Assembly: GCF_009914755.1 (NCBI RefSeq)
Contig: NC_060928.1
DNA from: the human T2T-CHM13v2.0 reference genome, Homo sapiens
Length of the DNA stretch: 64,000 nt
Reading direction: 5' to 3' (one strand)
Below are positions 445-5,354 of the stretch, piece by piece; position 1 is the stretch's first letter; every line of letters begins with the position of its first letter. The position numbers were made by a program, and so were the translations under genes. The notes below the pieces were generated by a model. That model was not told the origin of the DNA and did no database searches. It saw only the letters and a program-made list of their open reading frames with translations.

Positions 445-572
445 ATATACATCCCTGGCCTTGAGTGAAATGAAATGACCCAGGCCACAAGCGCATGACC
501 AGTGGGACTGGAGGGTTCCTTGGTGCATTTGTCACCAAGGCCCGAATCTGGCTCTCTTAACAGAAAGGCAAT
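445..572 (+). repeat. Diverged inverted copy of the ~110-bp segment at 3710-3818
   Basis: ccttgagtg...ccagtgggactggagggttcc...gaatctggctctcttaacagaaaggcaat aligns to the reverse complement of 3710-3818 (ccttgagcg...ccagtgggaccggagggttcc...gaatcctgctcgcttaacaggaaggcaat). Confidence 0.85.
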
Positions 573-645
573 TGACACCCATGGGCTCACTTAGCAAAAC
601 AGCTGCTTCTAATGGGGATTGCAGACTTAAAGAAACTGAGATGCA

Positions 646-932
646 GCCGGGCACAGTGGCTCATGCCTGTAATCCCAACACTTTGGGAAGCCAAGGCGGG
701 CGGATCACCTGAGGTTGGGAGGTCGAGACCAGCCTGACCAACATGGAGAAATCCCATCTCTACTAAAAATATAAAATTAGCCAGGCGTGGCGGCATATGC
801 CTGTAATCCCAGCTACTCGGGAGGCTGAGGCAGGAGAATGGCATGAACCTGGGAGGTGGAGGTTGCAGTGAGCTGAGATTGTGCCATTGCACTCCAGCCT
901 GGGCAACAAGAGGGAAACTCCATCTCAAAAAA
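646..932 (+). mobile_element. Alu, AluSp-like
   Basis: Full dimer with cctgaccaacatggagaa; TSD aagaaactgagatgca / aagaaactaagattca. Confidence 0.95.
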
Positions 933-1024
933 GAAACTAAGATTCATGAGCTGTGGACCAGGGAGCAGTGCAGGGAGTAGTAGCAAACCCTGTAAAAAAA
1001 AAAAATCTTAAATCACCCTTTCTT

Positions 1025-1148
1025 GTGCCCCTTTTAAGGTTGACACAGTGCATTAAGCAGAAGGGTTAAGTAAGTCTCCATAAAACCCAGAGAAGAGAAT
1101 GTAAAGCTCCTCTTTGGAGGAGCTAGACTCCTGTCTGGAGTCACAGCT
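1025..1148 (+). ncRNA. SNORA26-like H/ACA snoRNA paralog, probably a pseudogene
   Basis: gtgccccttttaaggttgac...aagtaagtctccataaaacccagagaagaga...cctgtctggagtcacagct matches recalled SNORA26 (HBI-6); H box AGAGAA 1089-1094; ACA 1143-1145, 3 nt from the end; no poly(A) tail or TSD. Confidence 0.85.
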
Positions 1149-1740
1149 GAACAAATTCCTTACAGTTTAAGCACATTTGTGATATTTTTGCATATCACAT
1201 ATGATGCATTCAAACTTAACCTTAGCTTTGACAGTGCATAAAAACCAAGTGTTGGTATTTGACACTGTAAGCAGTAATGGCCCAGCAGAATAGTATAGAC
1301 TGCTTTCACCTGAGAACATCTGAAGACTGGCTGACTCTGGTCATAATGCCTCCCAGAACCAGATTTCAATGGGTACGGACATTTGAACTGTTACCTACTT
1401 AGGCCATGGAATGTCTCAAGTTACTCAAACTCACCCGCAAAGGCCTTGCGTCACTTGCGTTCCTCCTGATCTCGAAGGCAGGTGTGCACACTTAGCAGCT
1501 GGCTGTTGCTACCAATGGATTCCCAGTTGTGCTGCCTTTGCCTAACCTCTACATGCTCTCCCAGGCATAACCACAGAAACCTTCACTGAGATATTGAAAT
1601 TAGCATTAACCACCCCACACACCTGTTTTTATTTACTCAGTTTTGACAAGCCTTTCCGTGTATATTGCTGTGAAAACAATGAGATAGCTGTAGGTATTCT
1701 AGGACAACTTTCTTCCTCTCAGGTAAGTTGCATAGCATAT

Positions 1741-2054
1741 TTTTTTTTCTTTTTTTTCCTTAGAAACAGGGTCTCACTCTGTTGCCCAAGCTGGAATGCA
1801 GTGGTGCAAGCATGGCTCACTGCAGCATCGAACACCTGGGCTCAAGAGATCCTCCCACCTCAGTCTCCCCTGTAGCTGGGACTACAGGCATGCACCACCA
1901 TACCTGGCTTCCTTTTTTAAAAAAAATTATTTTTAATAGGGACAAGGTCTGGCCATGTTGCCCAGGGTGGTCTCAAACTTCTAAGCTCAAGTGATCCTCT
2001 CATCTTGGCATCCCAAAGTGCTAGTATTATAGGTGTGAGCCACCATGCCCGGCC
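1741..2054 (-). mobile_element. AluJ-like, inserted in pol
   Basis: Reverse Alu dimer; TSD catagcatat at 1731-1740 and 2056-2065. Confidence 0.95.
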
Positions 2055-2408
2055 TCATAGCATATTTTTCATGTCAGTTGGATCCCGTGGTATCAGGCAT
2101 GCTCCTATGCCTATGTAGTGACCTCAGCTGCCATCCTAATTGACAAAGCCATTAACCTTACAATAGGTTCTCTTATTTACCTTTGTTTCCCATTCTGTGT
2201 CAACTCTTACAGTTCCATAAAAGAGTGCCTTTCTACTTGACAGACCAACCCCTCCTCATCTTGCAACTCTGTAATGCTCTAAACCTGTACCTCTCCCTGA
2301 TGGAGAACCCCACTCCACATCACATGATTGCCTTACAGTCACAGAGTTGGCTTCTAAACCACAAGAAGACCTCTTAAGATACTCCTTGAGCCATCCACAC
2401 TTACTCTG

Positions 2409-2682
2409 GGCCGGGTGTGGTGGCTCACACCTGTAATCCCAGCACTTTGGGAGGCCGAGGTAGGGCAGATCACCTGACGTCAGGAGTTTGAGACCAGCCT
2501 GGCCAACATGGTGAAATCCCATCTCTACTAAAAAATACAAAAATTAGCCAGCGTGGTGGCTTGTGCATGTCTTCCCAGCTACTCGGGGGATCACTTGAAC
2601 CCAGGAGGTGGAGGTTGCAGTGAGCCGAGATGGCAGCCTGGGCAACAGAGCGAGGCTCTGTCTTAAACAAACAAACAAAAAC
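2409..2682 (+). mobile_element. AluS-like with small deletions, inserted in pol
   Basis: TSD acttactct at 2399-2407 and 2685-2693. Confidence 0.95.
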
Positions 2683-2855
2683 AGACTTACTCTATCCTGT
2701 GACAACTCTTATAAACAAAATTCTCAGAAAGATAATAACCAGCTATGACATAGTGAGCTTGTACACTGGTGAAAGAGAAAACGTACACTACTTACACTGA
2801 CTAGGTATACCCTGGGACTCTGCCATGTCCTTGGCAGTTTGGAAACCCCATAGAT

Positions 2856-3186
2856 GATGATGATGATGATTTGAGACGGAATTCTTCTTATTATTATTAT
2901 TAATTGAGATGGAATCTCACTCTGTTGCTCGGGCTGGAGTGCAGTGGTGCGATCTCCGCTCACCACAACCTCTACATCCCAGGTTCAAGCAATTCTCCTG
3001 CCTCAGCCTCCCGGCTAGCTGGAATTACAGGCATGCACCACCACGCCTGGCTAATTTTTGAATTTTTAGTAGAGATGGGGTTTCACCATGTTGGCCAGGT
3101 AGGTCTCGAACTCCTGACCTCAGGCAATCCGCCCACCTCGGCCTCCCAAAGTGATGGGATCACCGGAGTGAGCCACTGCGCCCTAC
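2856..3186 (-). mobile_element. AluSx-like, inserted in pol
   Basis: TSD ccccatagat at 2846-2855 and 3189-3198; (GAT)n/(TAT)n tail. Confidence 0.95.
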
Positions 3187-3544
3187 CCCCCCATAGATTC
3201 TCGACCTCAGCATATACTCCCATCACCAATGGGCATATAATTGTTATCCTATTACAGTCTATTTATTTTCCTACATAAATTATTATTGTTCATTGCGCAA
3301 CACTTAGGAAACTGATAGAGTATCTTTATGGAATTGTAGGGCTGAGAAAGCTGCTAAATGGGCAGGCAAAAATGGACTCCCTGTCTCTCCTCCACCCAGC
3401 TTGCGACCCTCCTCTTATCTCTGACTCACGTTCATTGTCGGGCAAATGCCCCACAACCTAAAACAGACATGGCTACCAAAGGGGGCCAAGCAGTTATGCG
3501 ATGGATTAGACATGGGACCAAATGGACTTCTTTGGCCACTGTGC

Positions 3545-3728: not shown

Positions 3729-3826
3729 AGCAGGATTCAGACACCAGGAACCCTCCGGTCCCACTGGCCACGTGCTCAGGGCTGGGTAATTTCCTCCCGC
3801 TCAAGGGTAGGAACATACCTGCGCTT
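3729..3826. repeat. 98-bp direct repeat, copy 1 (spans the exon 2 splice donor)
   Basis: About 10 mismatches and no gaps versus 4413-4510 by manual alignment. Confidence 0.95.
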
Positions 3827-3958
3827 AAAACTGAGGCTGCCGCACCTCCGCAGACGTAGACAACGAATTCCTGGAGCCCAAGGTCGGCCGGGGTTGGGTT
3901 CCTGTCGCCGCACGCGTGGCCCGCCCGAAACCCGCTACAAAGTAGCGGCGTGTCTGCC
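3819..3958 (-). other. ERVMER34-1: Non-coding exon 2 (140 nt), homologous to DANCR exon 2
   Basis: Acceptor tttgcgctttgcctccctag|GGCAGAC; donor GCGCAG|gtatgt; body TGTAGCGGGTTTCGGGCGGGCCACGCGTGCGG..ACAGGAACCCAACCCC matches recalled DANCR sequence. Confidence 0.75.
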
Positions 3959-4035
3959 CTAGGGAGGCAAAGCGCAAACTTGTTACCGCGCCGGGACCTG
4001 CCCCGGGATTCTCCCAGCGGCTCCGCAGGACGCAG

Positions 4036-4101
4036 CGCCTGTGCCTCGCGCGGCCCTGGGACGGGCACGGCCGTCCGCCCCCTGGGCCGCCGAGGGCTGC
4101 T
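4036..4101 (-). ncRNA. MIR4449-like hairpin paralog in intron 1
   Basis: Minus strand agcagccctcggcggcccagggggcggacggccgtgcccgtcccagggccgcgcgaggcacaggcg closely matches recalled pre-mir-4449. Confidence 0.7.
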
Positions 4102-4231
4102 TTACCCCTCCGTTCTGGCCGCGGGCAGCAGAGGAGCTCGGGGCGGGCAAAGCTCGAGGGGACACGGGGCGAGCCCAGACCCTGCCTGGGAGCCCTCCCC
4201 GCCGGAGACCAAAGGGCAGAAACGCACTCAC

Positions 4232-4314
4232 AGTGCAACTCCGAGGGATAAACTGGCCGACGATCGCCGCCAGGCCAGAAGACCAAGAAGAAGGCTCGCG
4301 GCGGGAACTGAAGT
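4232..4314 (-). other. ERVMER34-1: Non-coding exon 1 (83 nt)
   Basis: Starts at Inr ACTTC; ends GGAGTTGCACT|gtgagt, a consensus donor. Confidence 0.7.
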
Positions 4315-4330
4315 GAGCGGGGACACACGA

Positions 4331-4394
4331 GGGCTGGGAAGATCCTGGGTTGGGGCGGAGCGGGGCTGGGAAGATCCTGGGTTGGGGCGGGGCG
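4331..4394. repeat. 32-bp tandem duplication containing GC boxes
   Basis: gggctgggaagatcctgggttggggcgg(a/g)gcg twice; a diverged third unit near 4519-4548. Confidence 0.95.
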
Positions 4395-4412
4395 GGGCAC
4401 CGCAGAGCGGAC

Positions 4413-4510
4413 AGCCGGATTCAGGCACCAGGAACCCACCGGTCCCACTGGCCAGGTGCTCCGAGCTGGGTGATTTTCTCCCGCTCAAGACTAGGAACAT
4501 ACCTGCGCTT
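4413..4510. repeat. 98-bp direct repeat, copy 2, with minus-strand donor CAG|gtatgt at 4503/4502
   Basis: Aligns without gaps to 3729-3826. Confidence 0.95.
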
Positions 4511-5354
4511 TCGGCGCAGGGAAGACTCTGGGCGAGGGCGGGGCTGGGAGGAGGGCCGCGGGGCAGGCAGCCAATCCCAGGAAACTTCAGGACGAGGGCA
4601 GGACGGGGGCTGGACGGGCCCAGCCATTGGCCACCTGTGTCCACTGCCTGCCTAGGTCTGGCTTCCTAGGTCTGGCGGGTGAGACACAAGGCGAGCCTGC
4701 ACGAAGCATCCTTCGAACCTCAGGTACCCTGGGCAGGAGAATCGGCTTCTTCAGGCATCCTGCTGGGCCTTGGCCCTCGTCGATCTGGTTCTCTCAGCCC
4801 CTCGGTTTCTCCCCTGGGGAGACTTCGCGATTACCCTCTCCTCCCCTTGGCGCCTAGGCTCTCAGTCACGCGACCGCCTAGAGCCCTGAGCTGCTATTTA
4901 TGCCGCGTTTTTATTCACTTAGGTATTCAGCACGCCTTCATCAGGTGTGTACTCTGTGCCAGGCAATCTTCTAATCCTTAAATGGACGAAACAAAGGCCT
5001 CCCTTGGACTGACATTTTTAATGAAGAATAAAAACCCATAATGAAATATAAAAATATTAACGTTATAAGAGCTAAGGGAAAAAACATGTGTTACAACTTG
5101 AAAATACAAAAATAGGAAATCATCTTTCTCTGTGGACGAATGAAACCCCTGATTCTAAGAAACAAAGAAACAAAACTCATCATGACTGGTGTTCTGTACT
5201 CTTTGGAAAATACGTTTTACTGTAGAAATGACTAAATGCGATGAAAGACTCTTTACCAGAAGCAGTGGCTGGTTGGCGGCGCCTGTACGCCTGAGGAGCA
5301 CCCTTTTTGTGTCCATGTTTGATAAAGCAGAAGAGACCTAAAGAGACAAGGGGC

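What the first reader, a model, noticed from the sequence alone, without database searches (positions are those of the whole stretch)
445..4560. The putative HEMO (ERVMER34-1) env promoter and leader exons look like a duplicated DANCR snoRNA-host gene
Seen: a CpG island with an Inr at 4314, exon 1 (4314-4232, donor gtgagt), exon 2 (3958-3819, canonical acceptor and donor), an H/ACA snoRNA and a pol remnant. Recalled knowledge: exon 2 matches DANCR exon 2, the intron-1 hairpin matches MIR4449 and the snoRNA matches SNORA26, so all three DANCR components are present; HEMO is reported to use a non-LTR CpG promoter starting tc|ACTTC. Inference: a DANCR duplicate donated its promoter and leader to a retroviral env, i.e. 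host-to-virus promoter capture, the reverse of usual LTR exaptation. I do not know whether this origin is already published.
Basis: partly seen in the sequence, partly recalled or inferred. Interest (0 to 1): 0.9.

Follow-up and report, generated by a model that had tools for sequence, protein, structure and literature searches.

The report
HEMO leader copied from DANCR gene
The promoter region and untranslated leader exons of the human retroviral envelope gene HEMO are an old, partial and rearranged copy of the start of the neighbouring non-coding gene DANCR, which shows where this domesticated viral gene got its switch.

Summary
Window 3707-4668 (minus strand) is a paralogue of the first ~0.9 kb of DANCR, 38 kb away. 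BLAST gives 85.5% identity over 455 nt (E 2e-147), and it is the only such match in the genome. The exon 1 donor and both exon 2 splice sites sit at homologous positions. The intron 1 hairpin is 92% identical to MIR4449 and exon 2 is 89% identical. Exon 1 itself and the upstream promoter are much weaker (62-65%, rearranged).

The SNORA26-like copy (1026-1148) also comes from DANCR, because its intron flanks align too. It lies on the opposite strand, so the present layout is not collinear. The cause is a 3.27 kb inversion (about 440-3713) that flipped the snoRNA copy together with the MER34 pol (RNase H) remnant. Three things show this: an LTR-like repeat split at the two breakpoints, 8 of 8 other MER34 copies with the opposite pol-env orientation, and a ~120 nt inverted duplication of DANCR-like intron 2 at both ends.

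The copy ends inside intron 2, before DANCR exon 3, and abuts a 5'-truncated provirus. The DANCR exon 2 donor therefore splices to env.

No searchable paper links HEMO and DANCR except as neighbours. The 2017 HEMO paper could not be read.

The parts
4519..4668 (-). Segment homologous to the ~170 nt upstream of the DANCR TSS and to the TSS itself (L006 ~830-1049), including two conserved CCAAT-type boxes
   Evidence: BLAST HSPs: 4606-4663 vs L006 834-891 (81%, E 1.7e-9); 4538-4578 vs 896-936 (83%); 4549-4605 vs 993-1049 (77%); 4519-4544 vs 994-1019 (96%). CCAAT/ATTGG positions. Global identity is only 65%.
4413..4510 (-). Piece C: a local duplicate of 3729-3826 (exon 2 donor plus start of intron 2), inserted between the DANCR-like upstream segment and the HEMO TSS
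   Evidence: Repeat family D12, 98 nt, 90%. It shares an 18 nt deletion with piece A that piece B and DANCR lack (alignment A2). The CACGTG E-box is lost here.
4331..4394 (-). Two tandem 32 nt units (97% alike), related to 4514-4545 and to the DANCR TSS-proximal sequence, lying just upstream of the HEMO TSS
   Evidence: Repeat family D17; alignment A1.
4232..4314 (-). ERVMER34-1 exon 1. The TSS lies in an Inr-like TCACTTC. The 3' end and the GTGAGT donor are homologous to the DANCR exon 1 donor.
   Evidence: Hub RefSeq table for coordinates; A1; 62% identity over the exon; donor context; BLAST 4188-4313 vs L006 1051-1183, 67%, E 1.3e-4.
4036..4101 (-). MIR4449-like hairpin in intron 1
   Evidence: Rfam mir-4449: 67.8 bits against a 71-bit cut-off. 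61 of 66 positions are identical to MIR4449. It adopts the same fold, -42.5 against -47.5 kcal/mol.
3819..3958 (-). ERVMER34-1 exon 2, homologue of DANCR exon 2 (L006 1429-1564), with acceptor and donor at homologous positions
   Evidence: 89.0% identity (121 of 136 aligned); A1.
3707..3818 (-). Tail of piece A: the start of DANCR-like intron 2, carrying a conserved CACGTG at 3769. Positions 3707-3806 form the right arm of the inverted duplication. Junction J2 with the split repeat lies at 3710-3713 (CAAT microhomology).
   Evidence: 83.6% to L006 1565-1700. Inverted repeat with 459-575. A2 and A3. E-box.
3599..3718 (-). Alternative ERVMER34-1 exon built across junction J2: 5 nt DANCR-like, 4 nt of junction microhomology, and the rest the antisense strand of the LTR-like repeat
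   Evidence: Hub table for coordinates. Acceptor TTAACAG|G and donor TT|GTGAGT. A2 shows AACAGG here where DANCR has AACTGG.
3540..3713 (+). E2: the distal part of a split LTR-like interspersed repeat (contains an AATAAA-like CAATAGAGG region)
   Evidence: About 34 of 39 non-self hits at 72-81%. Aligned to an intact chrX copy, L016.
1300..3540 (+). MER34 pol remnant (RT-connection/RNase H region), inverted relative to env and interrupted by Alus at about 1738-2068, 2407-2681 and 2882-3184
   Evidence: Collinear homology to 8 of 8 MER34 loci, in the orientation opposite to env. The homologous stretches of L008 and L014 carry Pfam RNase_H (E 2e-10 and 4e-6). Alu positions.
440..1200 (+). Piece B: DANCR intron 2-like (L006 ~1557-2030), with an Alu at 646-943. 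Its head (440-575) is the left arm of the inverted duplication.
   Evidence: BLAST 490-645 and 978-1189 vs L006 1614-1773 and 1800-2023. MAFFT gives 77.6% overall, flanks 69-75%. A2.
1026..1148 (+). Degenerate SNORA26-like copy, antisense to ERVMER34-1 intron 2
   Evidence: Rfam 77.9 bits against 151.4 for DANCR's SNORA26. It has a 9 nt deletion in the 5' hairpin and a 10 nt insertion in the 3' hairpin. It ranks 10th of 11 genome hits.
136..439 (+). E1: the proximal part of the same split LTR-like repeat. Junction J1 with piece B is at 439|440.
   Evidence: 39 non-self hits at 73-80%. In 9 of 9 loci present in both hit lists, E1 and E2 abut in the un-inverted relation. A3.

Best explanation
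ERVMER34-1/HEMO is a chimeric gene. A ~1.2 kb DNA-level copy of the 5' end of the snoRNA-host lncRNA DANCR lies, in inverted orientation relative to DANCR, against a 5'-truncated MER34 provirus. The copy runs from about 170 nt upstream of the DANCR TSS, through exon 1, intron 1 with MIR4449, exon 2, and intron 2 with SNORA26. It stops about 80 nt before exon 3. It meets the provirus inside pol, so the LTR, gag and 5' pol are missing.

Transcription starts in the DANCR-derived CpG island. It uses the DANCR-derived exon 1 donor and the exon 2 acceptor and donor. Because the copy lacks exon 3, the exon 2 donor splices to an acceptor upstream of env, giving a 223 nt AUG-free leader.

A 3.27 kb inversion (window ~440-3713) then turned over the SNORA26-like part of intron 2 together with the pol RNase H remnant. 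It may have been part of the same complex event. One breakpoint was in the DANCR-like intron 2, where ~120 nt were duplicated and now sit as inverted arms at both ends. The other was in an LTR-like repeat that had inserted into pol, where the joint shows a 4 nt CAAT microhomology.

Later changes were a 98 nt local duplication and 32 nt tandem units in the promoter, Alu insertions, and exonisation of the inversion junction (alternative exon 3599-3718).

Shown: the homologies, orientations, junctions and splice-site positions. Inferred: the order and dates of events, and that promoter activity and expression pattern derive from the DANCR ancestry.
For: - Paralogy. 85.5% over 455 nt, E 2e-147; the only full-length match in the genome; confined to 1.2 kb of the 45 kb upstream region. 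Splice sites lie at homologous columns. Per-feature identities: intron 1 86%, hairpin 92%, exon 2 89%, intron 2 start 84%. Piece B is 77.6% identical including snoRNA flanks, and homology fades at L006 ~2030, before the TCTATAG|G acceptor at ~2112.
- Rfam hits in both loci.
- Inversion, first line. The split repeat E1 (136-439) / E2 (3540-3713) abuts in the un-inverted relation in 9 of 9 loci present in both hit lists. It aligns to one intact chrX copy with at most 4 nt missing at the break.
- Inversion, second line. In 8 of 8 MER34 loci, the segments matching window 1326-3540 are collinear with, and in the same orientation as, those matching window -263..-3257 (env side). In the window they are opposite.
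- Inversion, third line. Inverted arms 459-525/3806-3742 (79%) and 544-575/3738-3707 (84%).
- Pol identity. RNase_H is found in the homologous stretches of L008 and L014.
- 5' truncation. Other copies share at least 3 kb further upstream. None of that is present within window -45709..64000: 0 hits for L009, L013 and L014.
- Leader. 223 nt with 0 ATG.
Against: - Promoter and exon 1 body homology is weak: 65% and 62% in a GC-rich global alignment, with local HSPs of only 26-58 nt. The HEMO TSS falls in a stretch with no clear DANCR counterpart, about 57 nt downstream of the position equivalent to the DANCR RefSeq TSS. The core promoter may therefore be largely a local novelty.
- The mir-4449-like hairpin is below Rfam's cut-off (67.8 against 71).
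- In the 112 sites shared by DANCR, A and B, the site patterns are star-like: A=B≠D 6, B=D≠A 7, A=D≠B 18. Substitutions alone do not show that A and B share a copy-specific ancestor. Only a shared 7 nt gap relative to DANCR does, and that could equally be an insertion in DANCR.
- No Pfam pol domain is detectable in the window itself (0 of 37 window ORF pieces; 0 of 6 read-through frames).
- The env-exon acceptor lies outside the window and I did not verify it. No expression data were examined.
Confidence: 0.85

Rival explanations
1. The locus arose in one complex event or by two separate copying events. Pieces A (inverted) and B (direct) would have been copied from DANCR separately, or in a single template-switching rearrangement that also inverted pol. 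This replaces the sequence of one duplication followed later by one inversion.
For: Star-like site patterns with no clear A+B stem (6/7/18 of 112 sites). CAAT microhomology at junction J2 and a near-blunt joint at J1. B is 75% and A is 85% identical to DANCR over the same 112 sites.
Against: A, B and C share a 7 nt gap relative to DANCR. The two DANCR-like ends sit exactly at the two ends of the inverted pol+E2 block, as a single inversion with a staggered break predicts. B's faster divergence is explained by CpG decay outside the island: 2 CpG against 14 in DANCR, and 5 of 18 B-specific changes are CpG transitions. Gene conversion of A by DANCR could also erase a stem.
Confidence: 0.25
2. MER34 integrated, in sense orientation, into intron 2 of an already existing DANCR duplicate, and later lost LTR-gag-RT by deletion. 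The alternative is that the DANCR fragment was copied onto an older, already resident provirus.
For: The fusion point lies inside intron 2, just after the snoRNA. The result is a standard intronic-insertion and exon-trapping geometry. No upstream proviral DNA lies beyond the promoter.
Against: No LTR or target-site duplication is left to test this. The junction is only located to window ~1200-1300. The literature places the provirus in the boreoeutherian ancestor (PMC10604696, passage), so the duplicate would have to be at least that old. Pairwise divergences are compatible with this but do not decide it: B flanks 69-75%, MER34 copies 64-83%.
Confidence: 0.35
3. The SNORA26-like element is an independent snoRNA retro-pseudogene that landed near HEMO by chance.
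For: The genome holds 11 SNORA26-family hits, 9 of them outside both DANCR and this window, so dispersed copies exist.
Against: About 290 nt upstream and about 50 nt downstream of the snoRNA also align to DANCR intron 2 (69-75%). The piece begins with the DANCR exon 2 donor region and overlaps piece A.
Confidence: 0.02
4. The similarity is generic CpG-island or low-complexity resemblance, not paralogy.
For: The promoter and exon 1 parts are GC-rich and only 62-65% identical.
Against: E 2e-147. The match is unique in a 3.1 Gb genome. Three splice sites are conserved, the hairpin is specific, and the AT-richer intron 2 part also matches.
Confidence: 0.01

Closest known systems
DANCR (ANCR/SNHG13) 5' end: a three-exon snoRNA/miRNA host lncRNA with MIR4449 in intron 1 and SNORA26 in intron 2 (PMC7591992, passage read)
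   Same: Same order of parts and homologous sequence: upstream CCAAT boxes, exon 1 donor, hairpin, exon 2 with both splice sites, a CACGTG E-box at the start of intron 2, and SNORA26 with its flanks.
   Different: The copy covers only 1.2 kb and lacks exon 3. The snoRNA part is inverted and degenerate. The promoter is rearranged by a 98 nt insert and 32 nt repeats. The TSS is shifted. The downstream exon is a retroviral env.
[quoted passage not shown]
   Same: Same gene, same CpG-island promoter, same non-LTR conclusion.
   Different: The papers I could read do not say where the island came from. PMC8978518 and PMC12704712 each have 0 occurrences of 'DANCR'. They also do not mention the inversion, the split repeat or the DANCR-like small-RNA relics.
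Domesticated env genes driven by their own LTR (for example syncytin-1/ERVW-1; recalled knowledge, not tested here)
   Same: A retained env ORF from an otherwise decayed provirus, expressed in placenta.
   Different: Here the regulatory module and the 5' UTR are of host-gene origin, not LTR origin.
Inversions with inverted duplications at the breakpoints (staggered-break model described for Drosophila inversions; recalled knowledge)
   Same: One breakpoint region is present at both ends of the inverted block in opposite orientation.
   Different: Only one of the two breakpoints is duplicated. The other is near-blunt with 4 nt of microhomology, so a replication-based template switch fits as well.

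Membership tests
Partial paralogue of DANCR | Significant, collinear sequence homology across promoter, exon 1, intron 1, exon 2 and intron 2 | tested here: met
   85.5% over 455 nt, E 2e-147, plus flanking collinear HSPs; A1. Promoter and exon 1 are weak (62-65%).
Partial paralogue of DANCR | Splice sites at homologous positions | tested here: met
   Exon 1 donor, exon 2 acceptor and exon 2 donor align column for column. The DANCR exon borders are inferred from GT/AG positions plus the published three-exon layout (PMC7591992), not from a transcript.
Partial paralogue of DANCR | Present-day collinearity including SNORA26 | tested here: not met
   SNORA26-like is on the plus strand and the rest is on the minus strand. 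The inversion explains this.
Partial paralogue of DANCR | Uniqueness (not a dispersed repeat) | tested here: met
   A whole-genome search gave only DANCR as a long match. The other 3 hits are 126-134 nt at 74-78%.
Rfam mir-4449 (RF03917) | Score at or above the gathering cut-off (71 bits) | tested here: not met
   67.8 bits, E 2.6e-10. The genuine MIR4449 scores 76.1.
Rfam mir-4449 (RF03917) | Processed into a mature miRNA | not testable with these tools
   The fold is kept: -42.5 kcal/mol, z -2.69. 5 of 66 positions differ. No small-RNA data were available.
Rfam SNORA26 (RF00568), functional H/ACA snoRNA | Score at or above the cut-off (40 bits), with H and ACA boxes | tested here: met
   77.9 bits. 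The AGUAAG hinge and the ACA 3 nt from the end are present in the cmscan alignment.
Rfam SNORA26 (RF00568), functional H/ACA snoRNA | Both hairpins intact | tested here: not met
   There is a 9 nt deletion and non-canonical pairs in the 5' hairpin, and a 10 nt insertion in the 3' hairpin. The MFE fold lacks the canonical 5' hairpin.
Rfam SNORA26 (RF00568), functional H/ACA snoRNA | Lies in sense orientation in an intron of a transcribed host gene | tested here: not met
   It is antisense to ERVMER34-1 intron 2. No plus-strand gene covers it in the hub table.
MER34 provirus internal region (pol) | DNA homology, collinear with other MER34 copies that carry env | tested here: met
   8 of 8 loci. 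Env relatives were found.
MER34 provirus internal region (pol) | Recognisable pol protein domain | tested here: inconclusive
   None in the window. RNase_H is present in the homologous stretches of two other copies.
Inversion with breakpoint duplication | A pre-existing element split by the breakpoints and reconstituted in other copies | tested here: met
   9 of 9 loci present in both lists. Alignment to an intact copy.
Inversion with breakpoint duplication | Ancestral (un-inverted) state seen in an outgroup species | not testable with these tools
   No non-human mammalian genomes are held.

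The most novel reading that the evidence does not exclude
HEMO was assembled when a ~1.2 kb regulatory and leader module of an ancient, vertebrate-conserved snoRNA host gene (DANCR) was copied onto a decapitated MER34 provirus. The shared ancestry would then explain why HEMO, like DANCR, is on in stem or progenitor cells and many tumours. That ancestry includes the CCAAT boxes, the CACGTG E-box at +540 and the CpG island. 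This would be a documented case of a domesticated viral gene acquiring the promoter, the 5' UTR exons and the splice donor of a specific, identifiable host non-coding gene. It appears not to be in print.
Probability: 0.4. Interest if true: 0.7.

Novelty: new variant of a known kind. Interest (0 to 1): 0.6.

Why it matters
HEMO is the oldest full-length retroviral env in the human genome. It is shed into maternal blood and is being pursued as a pan-cancer antigen, so how it is switched on matters. Until now the promoter has been described only as 'a cellular CpG island'.

If the island and leader are a DANCR 5' copy, there are concrete regulators to test, such as MYC/E-box and CCAAT-binding factors. 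There is also a natural paralogous control promoter 38 kb away, and a datable series of events (duplication, inversion, exonisation) for comparative genomics.

More generally, it is a clean example of the reverse of LTR exaptation. A viral coding sequence was rescued by a duplicated host non-coding-gene module, and the host exon 2 donor was re-aimed at env because the copy ended inside an intron.

Tried and rejected
- Pfam on 37 stop-free ORF pieces of window 1-3800 and 19 pieces of the left flank found only TLV_coat in env and three weak chance hits, and no pol domain.
- Pfam on six stop-as-X read-through frames of window 1190-3736 found 0 families. The pol identity therefore had to come from DNA homology and from other copies.
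- The bacterial-type promoter/terminator scan is irrelevant for a human Pol II promoter and was ignored.
- The 2017 HEMO paper (PMC5559007) is not held. The reported 'tc|ACTTC' start and anything its text or supplements say about the island's origin remain unchecked.
- Rows left out of the count as non-MER34 (low-complexity or other repeats hitting several places in both orientations): window 2590-2690, 5631-5668, 7362-7439, 9008-9139 and -5011..-4978.
- In one search, the 6 hits of L008 and the 9 hits of L010 map to other interspersed repeats inserted in those loci. They hit several window places and are absent from L009, L013 and L014.
- Considered and rejected: DANCR derived from HEMO (wrong direction, see the interpretation field); an independent snoRNA retro-pseudogene; generic CpG-island similarity.
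- Dating by divergence gave only a rough answer. B flanks are 69-75% identical to DANCR, a divergence in the range of MER34 copy pairs (64-83%) and of the split-repeat copies (73-80%). The events are therefore old, probably before the simian radiation, but no number is defensible without other genomes.

Full report
**Setting.** The window is T2T chr4:56234001-56298000. ERVMER34-1 (HEMO) runs on the minus strand from 4314 leftwards. Its env ORF lies outside the window, at window -3282..-1537 (L007 4718-6463, minus). Pfam sees only a TLV_coat TM-part match there. DANCR lies on the plus strand 38 kb to the left. I fetched it as L006. From the hub table, the DANCR TSS is at about L006 1000. Rfam places MIR4449 at L006 1287-1352 (76.1 bits) and SNORA26 at 1854-1975 (151.4 bits).

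**Check of the observation.**
- Rfam on window 1-8000 finds SNORA26 at 1026-1148 on the PLUS strand (77.9 bits, cut-off 40). It finds mir-4449 at 4036-4101 on the MINUS strand (67.8 bits, cut-off 71). The other 27 of 29 listed matches include none to a DANCR-borne RNA family, and nearly all are Alu-derived.
- A whole-genome search with window 3700-4560 (minus) returns 5 places: itself, DANCR (85%, E 1e-142), and three short pieces of 126-134 nt at 74-78%.
- Local BLAST against L006 gives 3738-4184 vs L006 1204-1653 at 85.5% over 455 nt (E 2e-147). Collinear weaker HSPs cover exon 1 (4188-4313, 67%) and the upstream region (4519-4663 vs L006 834-1049).
- In the MAFFT alignment, the exon 1 donor (GGAGTTGC.C.|GTGAGTGC), the exon 2 acceptor (CCC.AG|GGC) and the exon 2 donor (GCGCAG|GTATGTTCCTA) sit in the same columns in both loci.
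- Identities by feature are: upstream 65%, exon 1 62%, intron 1 86%, hairpin 92% (61 of 66), exon 2 89%, start of intron 2 84%.
- The CpG island (GC 0.69, o/e 0.76) coincides with the DANCR-like segment.
- The hairpin keeps the MIR4449 fold (-42.5 against -47.5 kcal/mol).

The promoter and the exon 1 body are the weak part.

**The SNORA26-like piece.** It is not a stray snoRNA pseudogene. Window 440-1200 (plus strand, with an Alu at 646-943) aligns to L006 ~1557-2030, including 290 nt upstream and about 50 nt downstream of the snoRNA. Identity is 77.6% overall, 69-75% in the flanks, and 94.7% in the snoRNA at aligned positions. The snoRNA copy also has a 9 nt deletion and a 10 nt insertion. 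Homology fades at L006 ~2030, about 80 nt before a TCTATAG|G site that fits the DANCR exon 3 acceptor. The piece ('B') begins with the last 8 nt of exon 2 plus the donor. It overlaps the tail of the minus-strand piece ('A') by about 120 nt, so 459-575 and 3806-3707 form an inverted repeat. A, B and a third local copy 'C' (4413-4510) share a 7 nt gap relative to DANCR. A and C share an 18 nt deletion that B lacks, so C was copied from A after A and B separated.

**Why the strands differ: an inversion.** Three independent lines show it.

1. Window 136-439 and 3540-3713 are two parts of one abundant LTR-like repeat. There are 416 first-look candidates for the first part, and the hits are 73-80% identical. 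Nine loci appear in both hit lists (chrX 40.389 Mb, chr20 4.713, chr10 110.071 and 113.037, chr17 54.380, chr15 80.845, chr9 133.666, chr7 112.829, chr1 166.714). In all nine the two parts abut, and their relative orientation is opposite to that in the window. Alignment to the intact chrX copy shows the break between '...GGAAAC' and 'CCAATAAAGG', with at most 4 nt missing. Junction J1 is at 439|440. Junction J2 lies within 3710-3713, where CAAT is shared by the DANCR-like sequence (as in piece B) and the repeat.

2. I fetched eight other MER34 loci that carry env relatives. In 8 of 8, the segments matching window 1326-3540 are collinear with, and in the same orientation as, those matching window -263..-3257 (pre-env and env). 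In the window the two blocks are opposite. Non-MER34 rows left out of that count are listed under Tried and rejected.

3. The duplicated DANCR-like arms sit exactly at the two ends of the flipped block.

The inverted block is therefore about 440-3713 (3.27 kb). Before the inversion, the order on the HEMO strand was: promoter, exon 1, hairpin, exon 2, intron 2 with SNORA26 in sense, pol remnant, LTR-like repeat (antisense), rest of pol, env.

**What the flipped viral part is.** No Pfam pol domain is detectable in the window. The homologous stretches of two other copies do carry RNase_H: L008 ~5561-5876 (E 2e-10) and L014 ~5699-5954 (E 4e-6). A weak RT_RNaseH_2 hit lies further upstream in L008. 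Window ~1300-3540 is thus the RT-connection/RNase H part of pol. Other MER34 copies share at least 3 kb more to the 5' side. None of that is found anywhere in window -45709..64000: 0 hits for L009, L013 and L014. The provirus is therefore 5'-truncated where it meets the DANCR-like piece, at a junction somewhere in window ~1200-1300. Conversely, nothing else in the 45 kb upstream of the window matches window 1-12000 apart from the 1.2 kb DANCR 5' end and one unrelated ~70 nt repeat.

**How it works (inference from anatomy).** Transcription starts in the DANCR-derived island at an Inr-like TCACTTC. The DANCR-type exon 1 donor and exon 2 are used. Because the copy stops inside intron 2, the exon 2 donor has no exon 3 and joins an acceptor in front of env. 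That acceptor lies outside the window, and I did not verify which AG is used (one search shows candidates). The leader of 223 nt has no ATG, whereas the corresponding DANCR exons have one. A 3 nt insertion in exon 2 removes it.

The HEMO promoter is not a plain copy of the DANCR promoter. A 98 nt duplicate of the exon 2 donor region (C) and two 32 nt units lie between the conserved CCAAT-box segment and the TSS. The TSS aligns about 57 nt downstream of the DANCR TSS equivalent. Motifs conserved at homologous positions are a CCAAT (L006 867 / window 4626-4630), an ATTGG (L006 899 / window 4571-4575) and a CACGTG E-box at the start of intron 2 (L006 1616 / window 3769). The E-box is lost in B and C. 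These are motif matches only.

The alternative exon 3599-3718 spans junction J2. Its acceptor AG is an A where DANCR has T, and most of the exon is the antisense LTR-like repeat. It can therefore only have arisen after the inversion.

**Timing.** Among the 112 sites shared by DANCR (D), A and B, the patterns are A=B≠D 6, B=D≠A 7 and A=D≠B 18. This gives no sign of a long interval between the duplication and the A/B split. The sample is small, B has lost its CpGs (2 against 14), and gene conversion of A by DANCR cannot be excluded. The B flanks are 69-75% identical to DANCR. That divergence is in the range seen between MER34 copies (64-83%) and between copies of the split repeat (73-80%). The events are old, most likely before the simian radiation and possibly near the age of the provirus, which is given as 100-120 My in PMC10604696 (passage read). 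Alus in B and in pol are later, primate-specific additions.

**Direction.** DANCR is the parent. Its snoRNA is intact (151.4 against 77.9 bits), and DANCR with snora26 is positionally conserved as far as zebrafish, where the MIR4449 position is a snora27 (PMC12694859, passages read).

**Literature.**
- PMC8978518 and PMC12704712 each have 0 occurrences of 'DANCR'.
- Eight papers hold both 'ERVMER34-1' and 'DANCR'. In the three I opened (PMC7591992, PMC5829309, PMC6639256; passages), the env gene is named only as a neighbour.
- A search for MER34 together with DANCR, SNORA26 or MIR4449 found 28 papers with at least two terms. None of the 26 listed contains MER34.
- Searches thus found no statement of the DANCR origin.
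- The primary 2017 paper is not held and its supplements were not seen, so prior mention there cannot be excluded.

**Verdict.** The finding is real and its interpretation is essentially right. I add the inversion with its exact junctions, the limits of the copy, the truncated provirus, the promoter rearrangements and the post-inversion exon. The kind of thing (a domesticated env on a host CpG promoter) is known for this very gene. The identified donor gene and the assembly history appear new.

Noticed in passing
L003 1500-1630 (G000:C9:~95.672 Mb) and L004 (C15:~53.3677 Mb): About 130 nt stretches 77-82% identical to DANCR intron 1, including a mir-4449-like hairpin (Rfam 41.9 bits in L003). 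The MIR4449/ex-snora27 region therefore has further dispersed relatives in the genome.
   Followed up: partly
window 3935-3947 (exon 2, minus strand): A 3 nt insertion relative to DANCR (CTA---TGTAG becomes CTACTTTGTAG) removes the only ATG of the DANCR-type leader. It also creates CTTTGTA, which resembles a TCF/LEF core (motif recalled). HEMO is reported to respond to Wnt/beta-catenin (PMC8978518).
   Followed up: no
genome-wide: There are 11 SNORA26-family hits in the genome. Eight dispersed copies score 89-134 bits, higher than the window copy at 77.9. These are probably snoRNA retro-pseudogenes.
   Followed up: no
window 3856-4312 and 4923-6461 (+): The predicted lncRNA LOC107986281 starts inside the DANCR-like exon 2 and intron 1 in antisense, and runs out of the island on the other side. 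The DANCR-derived island may therefore be bidirectional.
   Followed up: no
window 9020-9140: A ~70 nt repeat matches many places in the 45 kb upstream region and in all eight MER34 loci, in both orientations. It is unrelated to the finding.
   Followed up: no
PMC6639256, table passage: DANCR and ERVMER34-1 are listed as a differentially expressed lncRNA/nearby-mRNA pair in rectal adenocarcinoma. This is a hint of co-regulation worth checking against the shared promoter ancestry.
   Followed up: no
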